Source of the DNA: Desulfotomaculum sp.
GTDB taxonomy: Bacteria; Bacillota; Desulfotomaculia; Desulfotomaculales; Nap2-2B
DNA length: 64,000 bases
Direction of reading: 5' to 3'
Assembly: GCA_003485325.1 (NCBI GenBank)
Contig: DMZI01000068.1
Location: 38,553-102,552 of the forward strand
Below, in pieces: positions 1,328 through 61,516 of the stretch (position 1 is its first letter; each line of letters opens with the position of its first letter). The translations under genes were made by a program, and so were the position numbers. A model generated the notes under the pieces. The model ran no database searches. It was not told where the DNA came from and saw nothing but the letters and a program-made list of their open reading frames with translations.

Positions 1328-3529
1328 ATGTGTTTTTTAATGTCGGACATTTTGAACGGTTTAAATGAACATCAAGCGGAAGCGGTTAAGTATACAAAGG
1401 GGCCCCTTCTTGTCCTTGCAGGCGCCGGAAGCGGTAAAACCAGAGTCCTGACAGCTAAAATTGCTTACCTCTTAAAGGAGATGAGGTTATCCCCGTTTAA
1501 CATACTGGCGATTACGTTTACCAACAAAGCAGCCAATGAAATGAGGGAAAGAGTGGCGGCCGCCGTCCCGGATGTTGCAAAGGATATTTGGATACTTACC
1601 TTTCATGCCGCATGTGTCAGGATTTTAAGGAGGCAGGCCTTTTTTTTGGGTTATAACGGGGACTTTGTTATCTACGATGATGCAGACCGGCAGACGCTTC
1701 TCAAAGAATGTTTAAAAGAATTAAATTATGATGACAAAAAGTTTTCGCCAAGGGCTGTGGGAGCGGTTATTTCAAGGGCTAAAAACAATTTAACGGATCC
1801 TGAAGAATTTACAGAGCAGGCCCAGGAATATTTCGAGCAAAAGGTAGCGGAGATATATTCGTTCTACCAAAACCGCTTACTTAAAAACTGCGCTCTTGAT
1901 TTTGATGATCTGATTATGCAGACAGTGCGGCTTTTCGAACAGAAACCCAATGTCCTGTCGTATTATCAAAGCAAGTTTCGCTTTATTCTTGTGGATGAAT
2001 ATCAGGACACCAACACAGCTCAGTATGTGCTTGTAAAACTGCTTTCGGCGGCGCACCGCAATCTGTTTGTTGTCGGTGATCCGGACCAGAGCATTTACGG
2101 CTGGCGGGGGGCAAATATCCGCAACATCCTCAATTTTGAGAAAGATTATCACGACGCCAGAATAATCAAACTGGAACAGAACTACCGCTCAACCCAGGTT
2201 ATCCTTGATGTAGCTAACGAGGTGATTAGCAACAACAGTTCCCGGAAAGAAAAGGACTTATGGACTGCTGAAGGCCAGGGAGCGCCTGTAATGCTCTATC
2301 TCGGGCCGGATGAACATCAGGAAGCCCAATTTATAGCTGACCGGATAAGATCAATAAGGGAGCATTCCGGCGCCAATTACAAAGATTTTGCCGTTTTATA
2401 CCGCACGCATGCAATGTCCCGTGTGGTTGAGGAGATATTTCTGCGGGAGATGATTCCCTATACCATTATAGGAGGCTTAAAATTTTACGAACGCAAGGAA
2501 ATCAAGGATTTGCTCGCTTATTTGCGCCTGCTTGTCAATCCTGCGGATGCGGTAAGCCTTTCCAGAATAATCAATATACCTAAAAGAGGGGTAGGAGAGG
2601 CTTCTTTGCGGAGGTTGGCAAACTTTGCTCTTGAACAGAACATAACCATTCTTGAAGTTCTGGAGCGGGCTGCAAAAATTCCCGGCCTGACCAGCAAAGT
2701 CCGCCAGGCCTGCCTTAGCCTTGCGGGCGTGTTAAATAAGATTGCCCAGGAAAAAGAAATGATGAGTGTTACAGAGATCACTCAGAAAATTTTACAGCAG
2801 ACCGGCTATTGGCAGGAACTTATCAGTGAAAACACGGTGGAATCGCGGACAAGGCAGGATAACTTAAGGGAATTTATGTCTGTAACAAAGGAGTTTGACA
2901 AGTCTGCCGGCCACGGCAGCCTCTCGGCTTTTTTAGGTGAAATGGCTCTTTCCAGCGATATTGACTGGTACACAGATACGAGTGACCAGGTAGTGCTGAT
3001 GACACTCCACAGCGCCAAAGGGCTTGAATTTCCGGTTGTATTTTTAATTGGCCTGGAAGAGGGTGTTTTTCCTTATTCCCGTTCGCTGGACGAACAATTC
3101 GAGCTTGAAGAAGAGCGCCGCCTCTGCTATGTCGGGATAACACGGGCCAAGCAGCGTTTGTATCTTTCCCGCTGTTGGCAGCGAACGCTTTACGGTGTAA
3201 CACGTTTCAACAAGCCTTCACGGTTCCTTGAGGAAATTCCCGCTCACCTGATTATGTCCGAAGATCCCCTTACTATGGAAATAATACAGCCAAAAACTTA
3301 TTACAGAGGCCTTGAGACAAAGGAAAGAGTTGTTTCTATACCGGCAGGACCAGTTACAGCCCCGTATTTTAATCTCGGCGAACGTGTCCGGCACAGCAAA
3401 TGGGGTATAGGAACAATTGTCGACTTAAGCGGCAAGGGAGATTCTGCAGAGGTTAAGGTTGCCTTCCCCGATCTGGGCATAAAGACTCTGCTGGTCATTT
3501 ATGCGCCGTTGGAAAAAGTTTCATCCTAA
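1328..3529 (+). CDS. pcrA: ATP-dependent DNA helicase PcrA (UvrD family)
   Basis: 733 aa with Walker A AGAGSGKT, the DEYQDT box, the QNYRS motif and a C-terminal Tudor-like tail. The start could instead be the ATG at 1340. Confidence 0.9.
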   Translation: MCFLMSDILNGLNEHQAEAVKYTKGPLLVLAGAGSGKTRVLTAKIAYLLKEMRLSPFNILAITFTNKAANEMRERVAAAVPDVAKDIWILTFHAACVRILRRQAFFLGYNGDFVIYDDADRQTLLKECLKELNYDDKKFSPRAVGAVISRAKNNLTDPEEFTEQAQEYFEQKVAEIYSFYQNRLLKNCALDFDDLIMQTVRLFEQKPNVLSYYQSKFRFILVDEYQDTNTAQYVLVKLLSAAHRNLFVVGDPDQSIYGWRGANIRNILNFEKDYHDARIIKLEQNYRSTQVILDVANEVISNNSSRKEKDLWTAEGQGAPVMLYLGPDEHQEAQFIADRIRSIREHSGANYKDFAVLYRTHAMSRVVEEIFLREMIPYTIIGGLKFYERKEIKDLLAYLRLLVNPADAVSLSRIINIPKRGVGEASLRRLANFALEQNITILEVLERAAKIPGLTSKVRQACLSLAGVLNKIAQEKEMMSVTEITQKILQQTGYWQELISENTVESRTRQDNLREFMSVTKEFDKSAGHGSLSAFLGEMALSSDIDWYTDTSDQVVLMTLHSAKGLEFPVVFLIGLEEGVFPYSRSLDEQFELEEERRLCYVGITRAKQRLYLSRCWQRTLYGVTRFNKPSRFLEEIPAHLIMSEDPLTMEIIQPKTYYRGLETKERVVSIPAGPVTAPYFNLGERVRHSKWGIGTIVDLSGKGDSAEVKVAFPDLGIKTLLVIYAPLEKVSS

Positions 3530-3549
3530 AAGATATATAGTTATTTTCT

Positions 3550-3570
3550 GGCAATAATATTATTATTGCC
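3550..3570 (+). terminator. perfect AT-rich palindrome GGCAATAATAT/TATTATTGCC after pcrA (hairpin, no clear U-tract)
   Basis: Inverted repeat read directly. It lies 20 nt after the pcrA stop and is followed by ttacat rather than a T-run. Confidence 0.3.
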
Positions 3571-3585
3571 TTACATGGGGGTCTA

Positions 3586-4446
3586 ATGAAGCAGCTTTTA
3601 ATTGTAGCTATTCTTACAACCGTTATTCATATGGTGAACACTTTAATTTACTCCGTGCGTTTGTCGGGAGTCAGGACCGAGCGGCTGGCCACGGCGTTGT
3701 CGCTCTTTCAGGTGATTTTCCTTATTGCCAGCACGGCAAATTTAATCCAGGCCCCGCTAATGTCCTCGATCGTCGAGCATGCAATAAATAACGGAATTGC
3801 CAGGGTTGGCGCGAATGAACTGCTTGGCAGTTCCTTTTACCAACACCAGCTGGGCTTGTTAAATACTAAGATAAGGCTTGTAATTCTAGCCGGAACTATA
3901 GGCACTATCCTGGGAGGTTTGCTGATCCCGGCGTTTGTTTCGGTATTTGTAAAGTGGATAATGCTTTTAGAGGGTATTGGTTCAGTTCCGCGCATGCTTT
4001 TAGAGGCAATCTTAAGGCCGCGGAAAATTTCTTCCATGACCAGTAGATTCAGATTGCCAAGCCCGGGCAGATTCAGGGATGCCTTAAGAGAACCTTTAAA
4101 CATACCCAGGCATTTTTTAATTGCAAACATAATTATCACAGGAATCTGGACAACCGGCGTGCTTTCCGCTTTATACGCAGGCGCCCTGATACCTCACTTC
4201 AGATCCACAGCTACCCTGATGTCGGGTATTATCAACGGAGTTGCGGCTGTTTTGGCAGCCACGGTTGTAGACCCGACAGCTGCGCTTATTACGGATCAGG
4301 CCATGCGCGGCGTAAGAAAAGAAACAGACGTAAGACAGATGGCCATCTATCTGGCCTTCACGAGGCTGCTTGGCACAATGTTAGCCCAGGTTATCTTCGT
4401 GCCGGCAGCGTTAATTATCCGTGCAGCGGTAGTAATTATAACTTAG
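3586..4446 (+). CDS. amj: lipid II flippase Amj family protein (DUF2837)
   Basis: 286-aa polytopic membrane protein. The N-terminus LIVAILTTVIHMVNTLIYSVRLSGVRTERLATALSLF matches my recollection of the Amj/YdaH family consensus. Confidence 0.7.
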   Translation: MKQLLIVAILTTVIHMVNTLIYSVRLSGVRTERLATALSLFQVIFLIASTANLIQAPLMSSIVEHAINNGIARVGANELLGSSFYQHQLGLLNTKIRLVILAGTIGTILGGLLIPAFVSVFVKWIMLLEGIGSVPRMLLEAILRPRKISSMTSRFRLPSPGRFRDALREPLNIPRHFLIANIIITGIWTTGVLSALYAGALIPHFRSTATLMSGIINGVAAVLAATVVDPTAALITDQAMRGVRKETDVRQMAIYLAFTRLLGTMLAQVIFVPAALIIRAAVVIIT

Positions 4447-6465
<2,019 letters not shown>

Positions 6466-9784: not shown

Positions 9785-9980
9785 GGCGCTTAAGCATCTT
9801 AAGTAAGCGGCGCATCGGAAGGATGAAAATTCATCAACAAGGGAGGTCAATGCCTCAAGTGCGATTTTGAGCCTTAATTCAAAGAAAGAGAGAACCCGAG
9901 GATAAGCGAGGGAACTGTTTGAGGCGTGTTAACGCCGAGTTTGACCGAGCCCGAGGGTCATCAACTTCATCGGACAACTA
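9785..9980. repeat. intergenic repeat copy (B-tail fragment + head remnant + A-body), forward orientation
   Basis: 9821-9960 aligns by eye to the reverse complement of 61213-61355. 9785-9818 resembles the ...GCTTAAGCAYCGGAGTAAGCGG... block seen at 27310-27335, 46970-46993 and rc 60815-60845. Confidence 0.8.
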
Positions 9981-9981
9981 C

Positions 9982-10022
9982 TAAGGCTTGACAAAAAAAA
10001 TGTTTAAGCCTTATTCTTTTTT
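9982..10022 (+). terminator. hairpin TAAGGCTT-N16-AAGCCTTA followed by a T-run (putative gatCAB terminator; first part of the duplicated cassette)
   Basis: 8-bp perfect inverted repeat followed by ttcttttttg. The same structure recurs at 20108-20148. Confidence 0.45.
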
Positions 10023-10033
10023 GTTGTTAAATA

Positions 10034-10087
10034 TACAAATTTATTGTAATTATTTTAATTTAACCGGTCTATTGTTTTTTTTATTAT
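10034..10087 (+). promoter_or_regulatory. palindrome TACAAATTTATTGTA (10034-10048) plus putative sigmaA promoter TTAACC-16-TATTAT (10060-10087) upstream of adenine deaminase
   Basis: Read directly. The whole block is near-identical to 20160-20213 upstream of the hydroxylase operon. Confidence 0.45.
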
Positions 10088-10115
10088 TAAATTAAATATA
10101 AGGAGATTTCCAGTT

Positions 10116-11870
10116 ATGAATTTGAGAGAATTAAACAGTTTGATTAAGGTGGCGATGGGAGAAGAAAAGGCGGATTTAGTGCTCCAAAACGGCTCACTGG
10201 TTAACGTATATACGGGCGAAATACTGGAAGAACATTCTGTGGCCGTCAAGGGGGAAAGAATAGCCTGGGTAGGCAAAGACGACAGGAATGTTACAGGGCC
10301 TGAGACGAATGTTATCGACTGTACAGGGAAATTTATCATCCCGGGATTTATAGACGGCCACACCCATTTAATTCTTTTCTATCAGGCGGATCAGTTTCTT
10401 AGATATGCGATGCGGGGCGGGACTACCACAATAATTACAGAACTGATGGAAATCAGCTTTCCGCTTGGATATCAGGGAATTCTGGAATATCTGGAATCCC
10501 TTAAAAACCAGCCCATAAAGATTTTTGGTGTGGCGCCTCCGATGGTTACAAACAGCTTAAGGACGCGATCAAGAGCGATTAACCTTGATCAGATTGCCGA
10601 ACTGCTCAAACGTGATGATATTTTAGGTTTGGGAGAAACATACTGGTCAGCCGTAATTGAACGGGATGAAAAGATACTGGAGTTTTTTGTTGAGACTTTC
10701 AAGGCGGGCAAGATAATTGCGGGCCATACGGCCGGCGCCAGGGGCAACAGGCTTACAGCTTATGCGGCGGGAGGTGTCCGGTCGTGCCATGAGCCAATCA
10801 CCGCGGCGGATGTTTTGGAAAGGTTAAGGCTGGGTCTTTATGTACTGATCAGGGAAGGAGGTATCCGGAAAGAACTGGCGGAAATATCGAAAATAAAGGA
10901 TCTGCAGCTCGATCTGAGACAATTGATTCTATCCACGGACAGTATTACTCCTGAGCAAGTGGTAGAGGAAGGTTATATGGAAGCAGTGGTCCAGAAAGCC
11001 GTCGACCTTGGTTTTGATCCTGTTTGCGCTATCCAAATGGCTACACTAAACGTGGCCAAATACTGGAATCTGGATCATCTAATTGGTGGTATTGCGCCCA
11101 GCAAATATGCAGATATCATTATTCTGCCGGATCTGTACAATATAAAAGCCGAGTATGTAATCAGCAACGGCAAGGTTTTATCAAAAGAAGGCAAACTTCT
11201 TTTAGAACCAAGTAAATATACATTTCCGGCCTGGGCGCATAAAAGTATGCGGCTGACCAAGAATTTTGGACCTGAGGACTTTGAAATAAATGTTAAAAGC
11301 AACAGCGACCCTGTAAGAATCAGAGTAATTGAACAAATAACTGAACTGGTGACAAAGGAAACAATCCTGGAAGTCCCCGTCCTGGAGGGAAAAATCAAGG
11401 TTGATTTGGATAAAGACTTAATAAAAATTGCTGCTGTAGATTTTCTGGATGACCAGTTAAAAATGTTTGTCGGGTTAATCAAGGGCTTTCGGATGAAGAA
11501 AGGGGCGTTTGCCAGCAGCATGGCCTGGGATTTGACTAATATAGTGGTCATAGGAGCTGACGAAAAGGATATGGCGGTTGCTGTCAACAGGGTTCTAGAA
11601 CTTCAGGGAGGTATCGTGGTCTGTTCAAATGGTAAAATACTGGCTGAACTACCCATGTCCATAGGAGGTTACATGAGCAATCTTCCGATTGAAGAAATCG
11701 TCCAAAACCTTAAAGATATTCAAAAAGAGGCATCAGGTCTTGGCATCCCCTTCCCTGATGCGGAACTAAGCTTAAATACCCTGACAACTTCCGCAATACC
11801 ATTTTTCCGGATTTGCGAGGAAGGCTTTTATGATCTGAAAAACAACCGTTTGGTTGGCCTGCTGGTTTAA
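10116..11870 (+). CDS. ade: adenine deaminase
   Basis: 584 aa. It has the amidohydrolase metal motif IPGFIDGHTHL, and its length and the CHEP region are typical of the Ade family. An AAGGAG RBS is present. Confidence 0.9.
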   Translation: MNLRELNSLIKVAMGEEKADLVLQNGSLVNVYTGEILEEHSVAVKGERIAWVGKDDRNVTGPETNVIDCTGKFIIPGFIDGHTHLILFYQADQFLRYAMRGGTTTIITELMEISFPLGYQGILEYLESLKNQPIKIFGVAPPMVTNSLRTRSRAINLDQIAELLKRDDILGLGETYWSAVIERDEKILEFFVETFKAGKIIAGHTAGARGNRLTAYAAGGVRSCHEPITAADVLERLRLGLYVLIREGGIRKELAEISKIKDLQLDLRQLILSTDSITPEQVVEEGYMEAVVQKAVDLGFDPVCAIQMATLNVAKYWNLDHLIGGIAPSKYADIIILPDLYNIKAEYVISNGKVLSKEGKLLLEPSKYTFPAWAHKSMRLTKNFGPEDFEINVKSNSDPVRIRVIEQITELVTKETILEVPVLEGKIKVDLDKDLIKIAAVDFLDDQLKMFVGLIKGFRMKKGAFASSMAWDLTNIVVIGADEKDMAVAVNRVLELQGGIVVCSNGKILAELPMSIGGYMSNLPIEEIVQNLKDIQKEASGLGIPFPDAELSLNTLTTSAIPFFRICEEGFYDLKNNRLVGLLV

Positions 11871-19145: not shown

Positions 19146-19757
19146 TTGAGCAATTTTATTTCAGCTGTTATTTTAGCAGCGGGACAGGGAACAAGAATTG
19201 GCCGGCAAAAACTTCTCCTGACACTTGGCGGGAAAACAATAATCGAAATTGCAGTTGCTGCCGCACTGGGATCGAAGGTCAGTGAAACAATAGTTGTTTT
19301 AGGCCACCAGTCTGAAGAGATTGCCCAAGTTTTAAAAGGTCTGCCTGTCAAAACGGTTTTCAACCCCGATTACCGTTTAGGGCAAAGCACTTCCTTGATT
19401 TCCGGAATAAAGGCGATAAATCCTAAATCCGATGCATTCCTGGTTGTTCTGGGCGACCAGCCCTTCGTAACCTCTTTGTTGATCGATCAACTTATTGATT
19501 TTTATGAAAGATCTTTATGCCTCATTGCCAGGCCGCAATTTCAGGAAATACCCGGCCACCCAGTGCTTTTTAATACCAGTCTTATCCCGGAATTGTTAAA
19601 CAATTTAAAAGGAGATATTGGAGCCCGCGAAATAATCGCCCGTCATCAGGACAAGGTCAGTTTAATGCGGATTAAAAATGAGTCTGCGTCTAAGGACATT
19701 GATACATACGGTGATTATCAGACCGCTAAAGAATATTATTCAAAGACCTTAAAGTAA
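19146..19757 (+). CDS. mocA: MobA-like nucleotidyltransferase (YgfJ/MocA, molybdenum cofactor cytidylyltransferase family)
   Basis: 203 aa with the N-terminal AVILAAGQGTRIG..K motif and LGDQP. A GGGGGAG RBS is present. Confidence 0.8.
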   Translation: MSNFISAVILAAGQGTRIGRQKLLLTLGGKTIIEIAVAAALGSKVSETIVVLGHQSEEIAQVLKGLPVKTVFNPDYRLGQSTSLISGIKAINPKSDAFLVVLGDQPFVTSLLIDQLIDFYERSLCLIARPQFQEIPGHPVLFNTSLIPELLNNLKGDIGAREIIARHQDKVSLMRIKNESASKDIDTYGDYQTAKEYYSKTLK

Positions 19758-19892
19758 ATAACAAGAGATTTATCAGGTTGTACTAAGCAGGAGTGCAGAT
19801 GTAGCCTCGTAATACATAAAATCCGGTGGCTGAGCCAGTCGATACGGGGCGAAGGCGGAAGGTATAAAGAACAGACTGACCGTTCGGCTTTT

Positions 19893-19923
19893 CACCCATC
19901 GGCGGAGTATCAGCGGCGACAGG
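19893..19923. repeat. weak B-tail-like repeat fragment (CACCCATCGGCGGAGTATCAGCGGCGACAGG)
   Basis: It resembles CATCGGAGTAAGCGGTGACAATG (27314-27336) and CACCGGAGTAAGCGGCGATAAAT (46977-46999). Divergent. Confidence 0.3.
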
Positions 19924-20107
19924 TATTATTATTGATTAATCATATAGATCGGGTTTATAATAAACCCAATTATCTTCGCAAGGTGGAAAGAAAATTAAAC
20001 AGAAGTGACTTCTAAACCAGCCGGACAGGGGATTACAAAAAGAGCCCGTGTCTTTAATTCTTTAATATTGAATCTAAAAAAAGTTTACAAATTTATAGGG
20101 CAACTTC

Positions 20108-20148
20108 TAAGGCTTGACAATTTAAAAGTGTTTAAGTCTTATTTTTTT
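20108..20148 (+). terminator. hairpin TAAGGCTT-N18-AAGTCTTA followed by a T-run (second copy of the cassette terminator, after the ygfJ/mocA operon)
   Basis: Read directly. It has one mismatch in the stem relative to 9982-10013. Confidence 0.4.
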
Positions 20149-20159
20149 GTCGCAAAATA

Positions 20160-20213
20160 TACAAATTTATTGTAATTATTTTGATTTGACCAGTTATCTG
20201 ATTCTTTTATTAT
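20160..20213 (+). promoter_or_regulatory. palindrome TACAAATTTATTGTA (20160-20174) plus putative sigmaA promoter TTGACC-16-TATTAT (20186-20213)
   Basis: Read directly. An extra half-site TACAAATTTAT lies at 20086-20096, and a 5'-UTR hairpin ATTAATGC-N14-GCATTAAT lies at 20221-20250. Confidence 0.45.
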
Positions 20214-20300
20214 TAAATTAATTAATGCAGCTTGCGGTGCAGGCATTAATACATTGCCGAAAGCAACTTGTTAAAAGTTAATATAAAGGAGAGTAATTTT

Positions 20301-26026: not shown

Positions 26027-27019
26027 ATGAACAGGGGTAAAATAGGGATTACAACAACAATACCTGTTGAAATTGTTTACTCTGCCGGATATATTCCGGT
26101 GGATTTGAACAACTTGTTTATAAGTGACCCTGATGCGTTGACGCTTGTTGAAGAAGCTGAAATAGCGGGATACCCGCGTAATACCTGCGCATGGATTAAA
26201 GGCCTTTACAGTATCGTATTAAAGCACAGGGATATACGGACCGTTATTGCAGTTACCCAGGGGGATTGCAGCAACACCCATGCCCTTATGGAAACATTGC
26301 AATTGGAAGGTGTACAAGTTATTCCTTTCGCGTATCCTTTTGATCGCGACAGGGATCTTTTAAAACTGCAGATAGAAAAACTAATGTCCTATTTTGGTGT
26401 AAAGAATCAACAGGTTGAACCGGTCCGCGAGAAGCTCAACAAGATCAGGCGTAAGGTTTGGAAACTTGATCAACTTACATTTTCCGAAAATGTAATCAGC
26501 GGCTGGGACAACCATTATTATCAGGTAAGCTGCAGCGATTTTAAAGGCAACCCTGAAAGATTCGAAAGTGAGCTGGACACTTTTTTATCAGGTTTAAAGG
26601 GGGCAGTTTTACCCGAGACAGAGATCCGGCTGGGATATGCCGGTGTGCCGCCGATCATAGGTGACTTGTACAGCTACATGGAGGAAAAGGGCGCCCGGAT
26701 TGTTTTTAATGAAACACAGCGTCAGTTTACGATGCCCTTTGAGACACAGGATTTGGTTGAACAATATCGGTTATATACTTACCCGTACGGTATTTTTTTT
26801 CGTTTGCAGGACATTCTGAGGCAGATCGAAAAACGTAAAATAGACGGCCTTGTCCATTATGCCCAGGGTTTCTGTTTTCGGCAGATAGAAGACCTGATCA
26901 TGAGAAAAAAAATAAATATTCCAGTGCTTACCCTGGAGGGGGACAAGCCCAATCATCTGGATGCACGGACACGAACGAGGATCGACGCCTTTTTAGAAAT
27001 GATCAGCCGGTCTAAATAA
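26027..27019 (+). CDS. 2-hydroxyacyl-CoA dehydratase family protein (HgdB/BcrC-like, stand-alone)
   Basis: 330 aa. The N-terminus KIGITTTIPVEIVYSAGYIPVDL and conserved Cys residues (C54, C81) are typical of the HGD-D family. No activator or partner subunit is adjacent. Confidence 0.65.
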   Translation: MNRGKIGITTTIPVEIVYSAGYIPVDLNNLFISDPDALTLVEEAEIAGYPRNTCAWIKGLYSIVLKHRDIRTVIAVTQGDCSNTHALMETLQLEGVQVIPFAYPFDRDRDLLKLQIEKLMSYFGVKNQQVEPVREKLNKIRRKVWKLDQLTFSENVISGWDNHYYQVSCSDFKGNPERFESELDTFLSGLKGAVLPETEIRLGYAGVPPIIGDLYSYMEEKGARIVFNETQRQFTMPFETQDLVEQYRLYTYPYGIFFRLQDILRQIEKRKIDGLVHYAQGFCFRQIEDLIMRKKINIPVLTLEGDKPNHLDARTRTRIDAFLEMISRSK

Positions 27020-27399
27020 TTAGACATCCATGCTGCTACGCAGCACCAGCAGCAGGATGAAAAAGTAAGTATTCAGTAAAACCGTCCAAAGGGCACGGGT
27101 TGTCAAAGCGAACGACTTGCGAAGCTCCGGTAACATCAGATAAGCGAAGCGAGGGTAACCGGACAGCGATGCGAAACCAGCGGCTCTCTTAAGTTGTTAT
27201 AAAAGCAGTCTTAATTCCAAAGTTAACAGGGCGATGTTGTTAGTTACTCATATGCCGCCTTTGCAGCGCCGCTAGTCCGGTCCGATGCAAGCTGCGCTGC
27301 TGTCGGTGCTTAAGCATCGGAGTAAGCGGTGACAATGCCGTGTCTATAGGACTCATTATATAAAAAACTAATTTTCAGGATGGATAGTTATCAGGATAG
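27020..27399. repeat. intergenic repeat copy: head + B-body + duplicated tail, forward orientation
   Basis: 27071-27184 aligns to rc 60970-61086, 27252-27350 aligns to rc 60801-60898, and head 27021-27065 aligns to rc 61347-61390. The central ~65 bp is not alignable. Confidence 0.85.
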
Positions 27400-27441
27400 T
27401 TGCCTATGGTACTATATAAAGGATAAAGGGGAGGAATGTAT

Positions 27442-46938: not shown

Positions 46939-46996
46939 CCGGTCCGAGGCGAGCCGTACCGCTGTTGGCGCTTGGGCACCGGAGTAAGCGGCGATA
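46939..46996. repeat. B-tail repeat fragment directly after the purQ stop
   Basis: GGTCCGAGGCGAGCCGTACCGCTGTTGGCGCTTGGGCACCGGAGTAAGCGGCGATAAA aligns to 27279-27338. Confidence 0.65.
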
Positions 46997-47029
46997 AATA
47001 GTTAGTTGTTATCCATTGGGGGAGATGAA

Positions 47030-60518: not shown

Positions 60519-60704
60519 ATTAAGGAAATACGTGTACGTTATGTAAATCGCAATCACCAGCACCGTTTATACGGTGAGTGTGGTATAGTAATTGTTCGCT
60601 CTAAAGGACCCGGGCCGCGAAATATATTGGTCCGCTTTGACTCAGGTGAATTGGTAGTTGCGCCATGGGGAAACTGGCGCAAAGCAGAAGACAGACGGAA
60701 ATAA
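60519..60704 (+). CDS. possible small protein (61 aa, SH3/KOW-like pattern) with non-canonical ATT start
   Basis: The frame is open from 60501. A GGAGG at 60506-60510 lies 8 nt before the ATT at 60519, and a TATAAT lies at about 60466. The product IKEIRVRYVNRNHQHRLYGECGIVIVRSKGPGPRNILVRFDSGELVVAPWGNWRK looks protein-like. There is no ATG/GTG/TTG near the 5' end. Confidence 0.35.
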   Translation: MKEIRVRYVNRNHQHRLYGECGIVIVRSKGPGPRNILVRFDSGELVVAPWGNWRKAEDRRK

Positions 60705-60743
60705 CAAAAAAAGCTGATAGCAGTTTCTACTTTGAAAATAAGC

Positions 60744-61395
60744 TTTTCATGATTTGTGGCGCCGCTGGCGGCATGGGGAACTATCCTGAAAATAAGTATC
60801 CGATAGGCACGGCAATATCAACGCTCACTCCGGTGCTTAAGCACCGACAGCAGCACGGCTTGCTTCGGACCGGACTAGCGGTGCTGCAAAGGCGGCATGG
60901 CAAATTTTAAAAATATAGCTTCCATTATACTTCTGATCTCATTTAGCCTCTTCAAGAAACTACCAGTGTGCCGCTGGTTTCGCACCGCTGTCCGGTTACC
61001 CTCGCTTCGCCGGCTGCTGTTACCGGCGCTTCGCAAGTCGTTCGCTGTTGACAACACCGTGCCCTTTGGACGGTTTTACTGAATGCTTAATTTTTCATCA
61101 CCTGATGGCGCTGCATTGGCGGCATGGGTGTCTATCCTGAAAATTAATTTGTATTAGGGAGGTCAACTGCTAAGCGTGCTCATGTTCGCCTCTTATACTT
61201 GAACGAACTCGTTCACCCTCGGGCTTAAGTCAAAACTCGGCGCTAATGCGCCTCAAACAATTCCTTCGCTTATCCTCGGGCTCACTTGTTCTTTGAATGA
61301 AGGCTCAAAATCGCGCTTAAGGCATTGCCCTCCCTTTATTGATGAATTTTCATCCTCCTGCTGGCGCCGCTTTAGCAGCATGGATGTTCAACCCG
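60744..61395. repeat. mosaic repeat array: head-a / B-body(rc) / head-b / A-body(rc) / head-c
   Basis: Heads at 60744-60795, 61092-61146 and 61347-61390 share TTTTCATC..CTG.TGGCGC.GC....GC.GCATGG.TG..(TATCCTGAAAAT). The bodies match 27071-27350 and 9821-9960 in reverse complement. Confidence 0.85.
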
Positions 61396-61516
61396 GATAA
61401 TAATACCGACCTTAAAATTATTAGACATGTTTATCATGATCTATGCACTTTTTTACTCCGTATTTCTTGAATAAAACTGGATAAGCTAGAAAAATCAATA
61501 GTTAGGGGGTAAATAG

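What the first reader, a model, noticed from the sequence alone, without database searches (positions are those of the whole stretch)
60744..61395. Approx. 650-bp mosaic array of a modular intergenic repeat family (head/B/head/A/head)
Three ~45-55 bp head modules (60744-60795, 61092-61146, 61347-61390) share the pattern TTTTCATC..CTG.TGGCGC.GC....GC.GCATGG.TG, and two also share TATCCTGAAAAT. They alternate with two long bodies. Each body recurs elsewhere in the window in the opposite orientation. The B-body (60796-61090) matches 27066-27350, and the A-body (61147-61345) matches 9821-9960. Conserved blocks look roughly 80-90% identical by eye and are interrupted by unalignable cores. Indels break every reading frame between copies, so the modules are non-coding. 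I recognise no IS, MITE terminal inverted repeats, CRISPR architecture or Rfam-type motif. The organisation is reminiscent of enterobacterial BIME mosaics, but the sequences are unrelated to anything I know.
Basis: seen in the sequence. Interest (0 to 1): 0.7.

Follow-up and report, generated by a model that had tools for sequence, protein, structure and literature searches.

The report
Tandem mini-elements derived from an IS110 transposon
The 650-bp "mosaic repeat" is three small gene-less copies of a mobile element inserted head to tail, whose two ends match the ends of an IS110-family (bridge-RNA-guided) insertion sequence found intact in related bacteria, so it is a real but fairly ordinary kind of selfish DNA.

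Summary
The array, its three "heads" and the reverse-oriented A and B copies at 9.8 kb and 27 kb are real, with BLAST E-values of 1e-39 to 1e-74. At least seven more B copies, 98-100% identical, lie in other contigs of the same oil-reservoir organism.

The modules need redrawing. One unit is CTAY|YCTGAAAAT, then an optional long-palindrome body (none, A or B), then TTTTCATCC-hairpin-CATGGATGT|CTAY. The array is three tandem units: minimal, B and A.

Read on the opposite strand, these termini are the left and right ends of an IS110-family insertion sequence. Four complete copies were found in relatives: (A)TAG|ACATCCATGCCGC…GGATGAAAA, about 250 nt of non-coding left end, a DEDD/Tnp_20 recombinase, then …ATTTTCAGGATAG. 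In those copies two internal loops match the element's own right end (8/8 bases, three co-varying variants) and its left flank (6-8/8). That is the pattern expected of a bridge RNA.

The window units lack both the recombinase and the bridge-RNA region. They are non-autonomous, MITE-like IS110 derivatives, like MITEPpu9 of ISPpu9. The role of the bodies is unknown, although the B hairpin is kept by compensatory changes.

The parts
60727..60784 (-). Unit 1, the minimal unit with no body. On the + strand it reads CTAC|TTTGAAAAT-AAGC-TTTTCATG..hairpin..CATGGGGAA|CTAT.
   Evidence: Sequence. nhmmer head model hit at 60744-60790, E=2e-7. The left-end motif is listed. Minimal units of the same build occur in L065 and in L034/L041.
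60781..61135 (-). Unit 2, a B unit.
   Evidence: The first ~100 nt are 98-100% identical to L005-L011. The first 48 nt of the reverse complement are 89.6% identical to the left end of IS copy L105b (E=5e-11), and the last 31 nt are 81% identical to the right end of IS copy L099. The hairpin shows covariation.
61132..61391 (-). Unit 3, an A unit.
   Evidence: It is 89% identical over 256 nt to an A unit in L095. Its left-end part is 85.7% identical to IS copy L104, and its right-end 21 nt are 90% identical to IS copy L105a.
27021..27399 (+). A solo, older B unit between the HGD-D-family gene (stop codon at 27017-27019) and argG (start at 27436). The left-end hairpin is at 27024-27063, the body follows, and the right end ATTTTCAGGATGGATAG is at 27371-27387. 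An extra partial right-end repeat TCAGGATAG lies at 27391-27399.
   Evidence: At the orthologous site the closest relative, L014, carries a unit of about 100 nt with an internal deletion, and L015 has no unit.
9785..9968 (+). A truncated, chimeric A unit that begins immediately after the gatB stop codon. Its left-end hairpin is replaced by a B-arm-like segment (GGCGCTTAAGCATCTTAAGTAAGCGGCGC), and its right-end part is missing.
46939..47001 (+). An isolated fragment of one B arm between purQ and an HlyD-family gene. It ends in ...GCGGCGATAAATAG.
   Evidence: (D3).

Best explanation
The array is three non-autonomous, MITE-like derivatives of an IS110-family insertion sequence, inserted head to tail. 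In the orientation of the IS (the - strand here), each unit keeps three things: the core (A)TAG, the first ~45 nt of the IS left end (the hairpin ACATCCATGCCGC-loop-GCGGCGCC..CAGGAGGATGAAAA) and the last 13-31 nt of the right end (...ATTTTCAGG-ATAG). Everything between them in a full IS is replaced by a non-coding long-palindrome body (A or B) or by nothing. That missing part is the rest of the ~250-nt left end, which in full copies carries the bridge-RNA loops, plus the DEDD/Tnp_20 recombinase gene.

Inferred mechanism: a resident full-length IS of this subfamily supplies the recombinase and bridge RNA in trans. It then re-inserts at short A-rich ...ATAG targets, leaving the core at both ends. 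The right end of any unit itself ends in ...ATAG, and at least one natural IS copy has its target loop set to that right end. New insertions therefore land directly behind existing units, which builds the head/B/head/A/head mosaic.

Shown: the homology of both termini, the architecture of the full IS copies, the loop-to-end matches, the multi-copy near-identical spread, and conservation of the B hairpin. Inferred: mobilisation in trans, the circular intermediate, the targeting rule, and any role of the bodies. A plausible role is that a palindromic body brings the two ends together or lessens harm to the host.
For: 1. Redrawn boundaries. All B and A copies begin at the same nucleotide after unrelated flanks (CTAY|YCTGAAAAT), and all end at ..CATGGRKGT|CTAY.
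2. Full IS copies. L099 1519-3081, L104 1862-3238, L105a 1536-3111 and L105b 3108-4695 all share one plan: the reverse complement of the head at the left end (nhmmer E=3e-9 to 7e-16), then about 250 nt of non-coding sequence, then an IS110 recombinase, then a right end finishing in ATTTTCAGGATAG, ATTTTCAGGGTAG or ATTTTCAAGATAG. The recombinase carries PF01548 and PF02371, and the 406-aa L105b protein scores 292 bits against NCBIfam NF033542 'IS110 family RNA-guided transposase', cut-off 140.
3. Window units against IS ends. Left ends are 85.7-89.6% identical over 42-48 nt (E=1e-7 to 5e-11). Right ends are 81-90% identical over 21-31 nt.
5. Bridge-RNA signature in the full copies. The loop after AGCACG equals the element's own right end plus core at 8/8 bases in all four copies, across three variants. 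The loop after RRCCCG matches the left flank plus core at 6-8/8. In L105b that loop equals the right end of the upstream copy. The long left end and short right end (257 and 80 nt) match the IS110 group as described in PMC11208160.
6. Intermediate forms exist. L029 has the left-end hairpin fused to the C-terminal half of the recombinase, followed by ATTTTTAGGGCAG. L094/L096 have a left end lacking the target-loop region, followed by the start of the recombinase gene.
7. Recent spread. At least 7 B copies are 98-100% identical in different gene contexts, and assemblies break at them.
8. Precedent. ISPpu9, also IS110 family, has the MITE-like module MITEPpu9, which forms its own circles and occurs both solo and in tandem (PMC12288879).
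Against: No IS110 recombinase gene was found in the window or in the roughly 70 kb of other contigs held for this organism (tblastn). A cognate autonomous partner in this genome is therefore assumed, not shown. Right-end homology is short (13-31 nt). The A and B bodies show no detectable homology to the bridge-RNA region of the IS left end (nhmmer), so their origin is unexplained. The B hairpin is conserved by compensatory changes across genera (17 of 40 pairs, with 0 of 500 shuffles as high). A purely selfish deletion derivative does not predict this. No clean filled-versus-empty orthologous site was recovered: L015 lacks the unit but also lacks argG. No convincing junction promoter was seen. 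The orientation bias count includes a few orthologous, non-independent sites.
Confidence: 0.8

Rival explanations
1. The heads are a host REP-like hairpin repeat that IS110 elements merely use as an insertion target, as IS621 and ISPpu9 use REPs. On this view the bodies and heads are a host repeat system, and the IS association is secondary.
For: IS110-family elements are known to target repetitive palindromes (PMC11208160 and PMC12288879). Heads occur without a recombinase gene in several relatives: L034, L040, L041, L043 and L065.
Against: In four IS copies in unrelated gene contexts, the hairpin runs straight into the conserved left-end non-coding region and the recombinase gene. The sequence outside it differs every time, and no matching head part lies beyond the right end. 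Window units carry the hairpin at one end and the IS right-end motif at the other, again with unrelated flanks.
Confidence: 0.06
2. The A and B bodies are functional structured RNAs, and the IS ends are only their vehicle. They could be sRNAs, mRNA stabilisers or terminators, or regulators of the IS like Ssr9 of ISPpu9. Selection on the RNA would explain the conserved hairpin and the sense orientation relative to genes.
For: The B hairpin keeps 89% of cells paired, and 17 of 40 pairs are changed on both sides (0 of 500 shuffles as high; slid controls give 4 or fewer), including copies from another genus, L023/L025. MFE z-scores range from -5 to -11, and the gene-sense strand is the more stable by 15-22 kcal/mol. 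About 15 of 18 independent units lie sense to flanking co-directional genes and fill the gap between stop codon and ribosome-binding site, so they are probably co-transcribed. There is a precedent for an sRNA cargo in an IS110 MITE.
Against: There is no Rfam match even at E<=10. Very few G-U pairs occur (about 3% of paired cells), and A-C oppositions are about as frequent, so neither strand is favoured. That fits a DNA palindrome or arm-to-arm conversion as well as it fits RNA. The head hairpins fold better on the opposite strand from the bodies. Truncated and chimeric copies are common. The downstream genes have no common function. No promoter or terminator signal rises above chance.
Confidence: 0.12
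3. These are single-strand (HUH-type) elements: IS200/IS605-derived palindrome-associated elements, or REP/RAYT or IS91-like rolling-circle units. They would be recognised through a subterminal hairpin and a flanking CTAY tetranucleotide.
For: Before the IS110 link was found, several features fitted this idea: no terminal inverted repeats, a hairpin about 12 nt from one end, the same tetranucleotide at both junctions, a strand bias relative to genes, and a TATCCTG motif resembling relaxase nick sites.
Against: Both termini match IS110-family IS ends, with a DEDD recombinase between them. Only one end carries a hairpin. No Y1 or HUH gene was seen near any copy.
Confidence: 0.02

Closest known systems
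MITEPpu9 (the ssr9 module) of ISPpu9, IS110 family, Pseudomonas putida KT2440 (PMC12288879)
   Same: Both are short, recombinase-less modules bounded by copies of the IS left-end and right-end boxes. Both carry a non-coding cargo, occur next to the IS, alone and in tandem duplicates, and form their own circles using the IS recombinase in trans (the circles are shown for MITEPpu9 and inferred here).
   Different: The phylum differs (Bacillota, Desulfotomaculia) and the sequences are unrelated. The cargo here is a 200-300-nt near-perfect palindrome of two types, or nothing, rather than the Ssr9 sRNA. The copies here are numerous and partly near-identical. No cognate IS has yet been seen in the same genome. 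Mobility is untested.
IS621 and other IS110-group insertion sequences with bridge RNA (PMC11208160)
   Same: The related full-length elements (L099, L104, L105a, L105b) share the defining features: a DEDD plus Tnp_20 recombinase, no terminal inverted repeats, a long left end and short right end, a short core at both junctions, and left-end loops that match the donor end and the target flank. The window units carry the same donor ends.
   Different: The window units have no recombinase and none of the loop-bearing left-end region. The core appears to be (A)TAG rather than CT. The bridge-RNA fold of this subfamily was not modelled or matched to a published covariance model.
REP/BIME mosaics of enterobacteria
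   Same: Both are intergenic, hairpin-forming, multi-copy and arranged in mosaics, and both probably end up inside mRNAs.
   Different: BIMEs are 20-40-nt REPs in alternating orientation, linked to RAYT (HUH) transposases. Here the units are 60-360 nt, lie head to tail, and their termini are IS110 ends.
BOX elements of Streptococcus pneumoniae and similar modular small repeats
   Same: Both have a modular build, with conserved terminal modules and variable internal modules, strong secondary structure and an intergenic location.
   Different: BOX has no identified parent IS with matching ends. There is no sequence similarity, and this was not tested beyond the absence of any database hit.

Membership tests
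IS110 family (autonomous insertion sequence) | [quoted passage not shown] | tested here: not met
   The array holds no such ORF, and tblastn with the 406-aa L105b recombinase finds nothing in the window or in L001-L013. The feature is met only by the related full elements.
IS110 family (autonomous insertion sequence) | No terminal inverted repeats, with a short core sequence present at both junctions | tested here: met
   The ends CTATCCTGAAAAT and ATAGACATCCATG are not inverted copies of each other. CTAY/ATAG is found at both junctions of nearly all units and of all four IS copies.
IS110 family (autonomous insertion sequence) | A long non-coding left end encoding a bridge RNA whose loops match donor and target, and a short right end | tested here: not met
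   The full copies meet it: left end about 250 nt, right end 80-100 nt, and loops matching the right end at 8/8 and the left flank at 6-8/8. The window units keep only the first ~45 nt of the left end. An nhmmer profile of the loop region finds nothing in them.
IS110-derived non-autonomous (MITE-like) element, MITEPpu9 type | Both termini homologous to the left and right ends of an IS110-family IS, with no recombinase in between | tested here: met
   Left end: 85.7-89.6% identity over 42-48 nt, and nhmmer E down to 7e-16. Right end: the exact 13-mer ATTTTCAGGATAG, with 81-90% identity over 21-31 nt.
IS110-derived non-autonomous (MITE-like) element, MITEPpu9 type | Multiple dispersed copies, including tandem ones, in different genomic contexts | tested here: met
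   There are four sites in the window. L005-L011 hold at least 9 further B, A or mosaic sites. Tandem arrangements occur in the window array and in L009.
IS110-derived non-autonomous (MITE-like) element, MITEPpu9 type | Excision as a circle and re-insertion dependent on the IS recombinase supplied in trans | not testable with these tools
   This needs read-level junction searches or an experiment. Near-identical copies and assembly breaks only suggest recent movement.
Classical MITE | Terminal inverted repeats and target-site duplication derived from a DDE transposon | tested here: not met
   No terminal inverted repeats are present. The 4-nt CTAY at both ends is a constant sequence, not a variable duplication.
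REP/BIME | 20-40-nt imperfect palindromes in alternating orientation, with short linkers | tested here: not met
   All units in the array have the same orientation, and the bodies are 200-300 nt long.
Any Rfam RNA family | Covariance-model score at or above the gathering threshold | tested here: not met
   There are 0 hits in the window at gathering thresholds. At E<=10 only chance-level hits appear. There are 0 hits on the full IS copy in L099.
IS200/IS605-derived palindrome-associated element | Subterminal hairpins at both ends recognised by a Y1 transposase | tested here: not met
   Only one end carries the conserved hairpin. Minimal units have a single hairpin. The parent element encodes a DEDD recombinase.

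The most novel reading that the evidence does not exclude
The long-palindrome bodies may not be junk. They could be a selected adaptation of donor-only IS110 mini-elements. One possibility is a DNA or RNA hairpin that brings the two ends together, so that a 60-360-bp unit can be synapsed and circularised by a bridge recombinase supplied in trans. Another is a hitch-hiking structured RNA that modulates the parent IS or the flanking operons. The conservation of the B hairpin by compensatory changes across genera would then mark a previously unrecognised functional class of cargo for RNA-guided recombinases.
Probability: 0.15. Interest if true: 0.65.

Novelty: new member of a known kind. Interest (0 to 1): 0.4.

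Why it matters
This resolves what looked like an orphan repeat family into a known mechanism: IS110, or bridge-recombinase, mobile DNA. It adds a natural example from uncultured Desulfotomaculia of donor-only mini-elements that pile up in tandem. For annotators, it explains why assemblies of this lineage break in intergenic regions. It also shows that the 'head' motif marks IS110 left ends and right-end/left-end junctions. For the bridge-recombinase field it offers several things. It provides a subfamily whose donor and target loops can be read directly from the sequence. It includes a natural copy (L105b) whose target loop is set to the right end of its sibling, which gives a simple rule for tandem growth. 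It also supplies a set of natural minimal donors of about 45 nt plus 13 nt. The units sit between stop codons and ribosome-binding sites of housekeeping genes such as argG and folD, so they may also affect operon expression.

Tried and rejected
- **Rfam and tRNA scans.** Rfam at gathering and permissive thresholds on the window, the array, the 27-kb copy and a full IS gave nothing. ARAGORN found no tRNA or tmRNA.
- **Promoter and terminator scans** of the array and the 27-kb copy gave nothing above shuffled expectation.
- **BLAST of the array against plasmids and phages** gave no match.
- **Exact-pattern scan of 185,579 species genomes** with a B 5' block gave 0 hits. The family with that block is absent from, or not assembled in, the representative genomes.
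- **HUH ideas.** I pursued an IS200/IS605, REP-RAYT or IS91-like single-strand model, and a resemblance of TATCCTG plus an upstream hairpin to IncP/VirD2 nick sites. I dropped these once both ends matched IS110 elements.
- **Mini-ORF idea.** An ATG AAA start inside GGATGAAAA, sometimes ending at the terminal TAG, is not conserved in length or frame among copies.
- **Motif resemblances recalled from memory** were not supported by the sequences: CodY box, DnaA box, dif, attC, parS and CRISPR.
- **Homology of the bodies to the IS.** An nhmmer profile of four left ends finds L029 and L094/L096 but not the A or B bodies. BLAST of the units against the full IS copies hits only the termini.
- **Search for the cognate IS in this organism.** tblastn was negative. 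Look-ups of P0002, P0064 and P0077 led to other samples, and those more distant IS110 copies lack the head.
- **Second IMG/VR pattern.** It added only two chance hits inside coding regions.
- **Strand choice from G-U against A-C counts.** This was inconclusive: the heads favour one strand and the bodies the other.
- **GC skew.** It follows gene orientation, so it could not separate replication effects from transcription effects.

Full report
**1. Checking the observation**

The region reads as described. A sensitive BLAST of 60680-61440 against the window gave these matches:
- B, 60799-61134, against the reverse complement of 27021-27351: 79.6% over 338 nt, E=8e-74.
- A, 61205-61372, against the reverse complement of 9805-9968: 83.9% over 168 nt, E=2e-39.
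- A 58-nt B block at 46939-46996: E=3e-9.
- The heads against each other, and a fourth head at 27024-27063.

Pairwise alignments show long, nearly perfect blocks around a centre that cannot be aligned. No Rfam family and no tRNA is present. The flanking genes are ordinary housekeeping genes: gatB, adenine deaminase, an HGD-D-family gene, argG, purQ, an HlyD-family gene, cheA, a PGDYG protein and a beta-propeller protein.

**2. Dispersed, recently amplified copies**

Identical DNA occurs in the oil-reservoir metagenomes of Hu et al. 2016 (LDZP-LDZU). Three assemblies of this locus break inside B at window position 60991.

A metagenome pattern scan recovered L005-L011, which are LDZT01 contigs. 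Their B 5' parts are 98-100% identical to 60781-60890 over 82-178 nt. They lie in different gene contexts, often at contig ends. L009 carries another mosaic, and L005 and L010 carry half or internally replaced copies. These are therefore not local duplications.

**3. Redrawing the modules**

Every B and A copy starts at the same nucleotide after unrelated flanks, CTAY|YCTGAAAAT. Every copy ends at ..CATGGRKGT|CTAY.

The 27-kb solo B has TATCCTGAAAAT on one side and the hairpin on the other. The head is therefore the 3' end of one unit joined to the 5' end of the next.

The array is three units that share CTAT junctions:
- minimal unit, 60727-60784;
- B unit, 60781-61135;
- A unit, 61132-61391.

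Both bodies are long imperfect palindromes. For B, the consensus fold has 40 pairs, 89% of cells are paired, and 17 pairs are changed on both sides. None of 500 shuffles reached that, and slid controls gave 4 or fewer. The alignment includes copies from another genus.

**4. Position and orientation**

They often start right after a stop codon and end 0-80 nt before the next start codon.

**5. Relatives**

A protein-anchored scan using the HGD-D-family protein placed the organism among the Desulfotomaculia. The closest loci are L014 at 90% and L015 at 89% amino-acid identity.

L014 carries a deletion derivative of about 100 nt at the orthologous HGD-D/argG site. L015 has none there. An nhmmer model of the head found copies in L023, L025, L029, L034, L040, L041, L043 and L065. 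Some carry a B-like body and some are minimal units.

IMG/VR scans added an A unit 89% identical to the window's (L095). They also added two contigs (L094, L096) whose shared 4.7 kb ends exactly at the head terminus.

**6. The decisive link: an IS110-family insertion sequence**

Pfam showed IS110 recombinase fragments abutting the family termini in L096 and L029. Homologues of the L029 fragment led to complete elements:
- L099, 1519-3081;
- L104, 1862-3238, in Pelotomaculum isophthalicicum;
- L105a, 1536-3111, and L105b, 3108-4695, which are tandem.

Each reads (A)TAG|ACATCCATGCCGC..hairpin..GGATGAAAA, then about 250 nt of non-coding sequence, then a recombinase with PF01548 and PF02371, then 80-100 nt ending in ATTTTCAGGATAG. 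The first segment is the reverse complement of the head (nhmmer E=3e-9 to 7e-16). The last is the reverse complement of CTATCCTGAAAAT. The 406-aa L105b protein scores 292 bits against NF033542, 'IS110 family RNA-guided transposase'.

The window units match these left ends at 85.7-89.6% over 42-48 nt, and the right ends at 81-90% over 21-31 nt.

**7. Bridge-RNA signature**

In the four full copies, the loop after AGCACG equals the element's own right end plus core at 8/8 bases. It does so across three variants: CAGGGTAG, CAGGATAG and CAAGATAG.

The loop after RRCCCG matches the left flank plus core at 6-8/8. In L105b that loop is identical to the right end of the upstream copy, which would direct tandem insertion.

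This is the donor-guide and target-guide logic described for IS621, along with the long left end and short right end of the IS110 group (PMC11208160). The fold itself was not modelled.

**8. What the window units are**

They keep only the first ~45 nt of the left end and the tip of the right end. A profile of the loop-bearing left-end region finds L029 and L094/L096, but not the A or B bodies. No recombinase gene lies in the window or in the other contigs of this organism.

They are therefore non-autonomous derivatives that would depend on a full copy elsewhere. This is the situation shown experimentally for MITEPpu9 (the ssr9 module) of ISPpu9, which forms its own circles and occurs solo and in tandem (PMC12288879).

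In the array, the B unit is essentially identical to the recently spread copies. A and the minimal unit are more diverged. This fits a late B insertion at the right end of the A unit (inference).

**9. What remains open**

- The cognate IS in this genome has not been seen.
- The exact core and target rule are uncertain. Left flanks are A-rich and end in ATAG, which may explain the position just after stop codons.
- It is not known whether a junction promoter exists.
- The origin and role of the palindromic bodies are unexplained.
G-U pairs are rare in B. A DNA-level palindrome therefore explains the data as well as an RNA does.

**10. Verdict**

This is a real, well-observed repeat array that belongs to a known kind of system. 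It is a new family of IS110-derived MITE-like units, and it is moderately interesting for bridge-recombinase biology and for annotation of this lineage.

Noticed in passing
window 19742-19917 (+): An intergenic stretch downstream of the ORF ending at 19757 gives a sub-threshold but low-E match to Rfam RF02005, group-II-D1D4-6 (42.6 bits against a gathering score of 49, E=8e-11). It may be an ORF-less or degenerate group II intron fragment. It also contains CGGAGTATCAGCGGCGAC, which resembles a B-arm motif.
   Followed up: partly
window 9962-10098 and 20088-20224: A segment of about 137 nt, 84% identical between the two sites, is duplicated upstream of the adenine deaminase gene (10116) and of the ORF at 20268. 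It has a terminator-like hairpin (AAGGCTT..AAGCCTT plus a T-run) followed by an AT-rich, promoter-like region. At 9.8 kb it directly abuts the truncated A unit.
   Followed up: partly
L105 3108-4695 (GCA_000430625.1): This IS110 copy has a putative target-guide loop (CAGGATAG) identical to the right end of the sibling copy immediately upstream. Its donor loop (CAAGATAG) matches its own, different, right end. It looks like a natural case of a bridge RNA programmed for tandem insertion.
   Followed up: partly
L095 10743-10957 (-): A cobalamin riboswitch (RF00174, 118 bits) sits between a full A unit (10311-10570) and an inverted mini-A unit (11142-11261) in an IMG/VR contig from a related organism.
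   Followed up: yes
L096 1-1420 and L094 4730-5756: Directly beyond the head terminus the two otherwise 96%-identical contigs diverge into AT-rich DNA. L096 has a second, divergent IS110 recombinase fragment fused to ATTTTCAGGATAAGTAG, a CRISPR-repeat-like ...GGAATTGAAAC, and an ORF whose N-terminus resembles a type III CRISPR RAMP protein by eye. L094 has a 5'-truncated ORF cluster with a Mu-transposase C-terminal domain hit, which by eye resembles IS21 istA/istB. This is either a hot spot for mobile DNA or an assembly chimera at the repeat.
   Followed up: partly
window 60519-60705 (+): A 61-aa ORF with a good ribosome-binding site lies just upstream of the array and has no Pfam match. If it is a real gene, the array is co-directional with it, which would be the one exception to the orientation trend.
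   Followed up: no
window 27388-27399; L005 425-458; L007/L008 junctions: Short stuttered repeats of the right-end tip ((CA)GGATAG / TATCC) lie just outside several units. They may be remnants of earlier units or footprints of excision.
   Followed up: no
window ~49.7 kb: Gene orientation switches from almost all + strand to almost all - strand here, and GC skew changes sign with it. The orientation of the units follows the local gene direction on both sides.
   Followed up: partly
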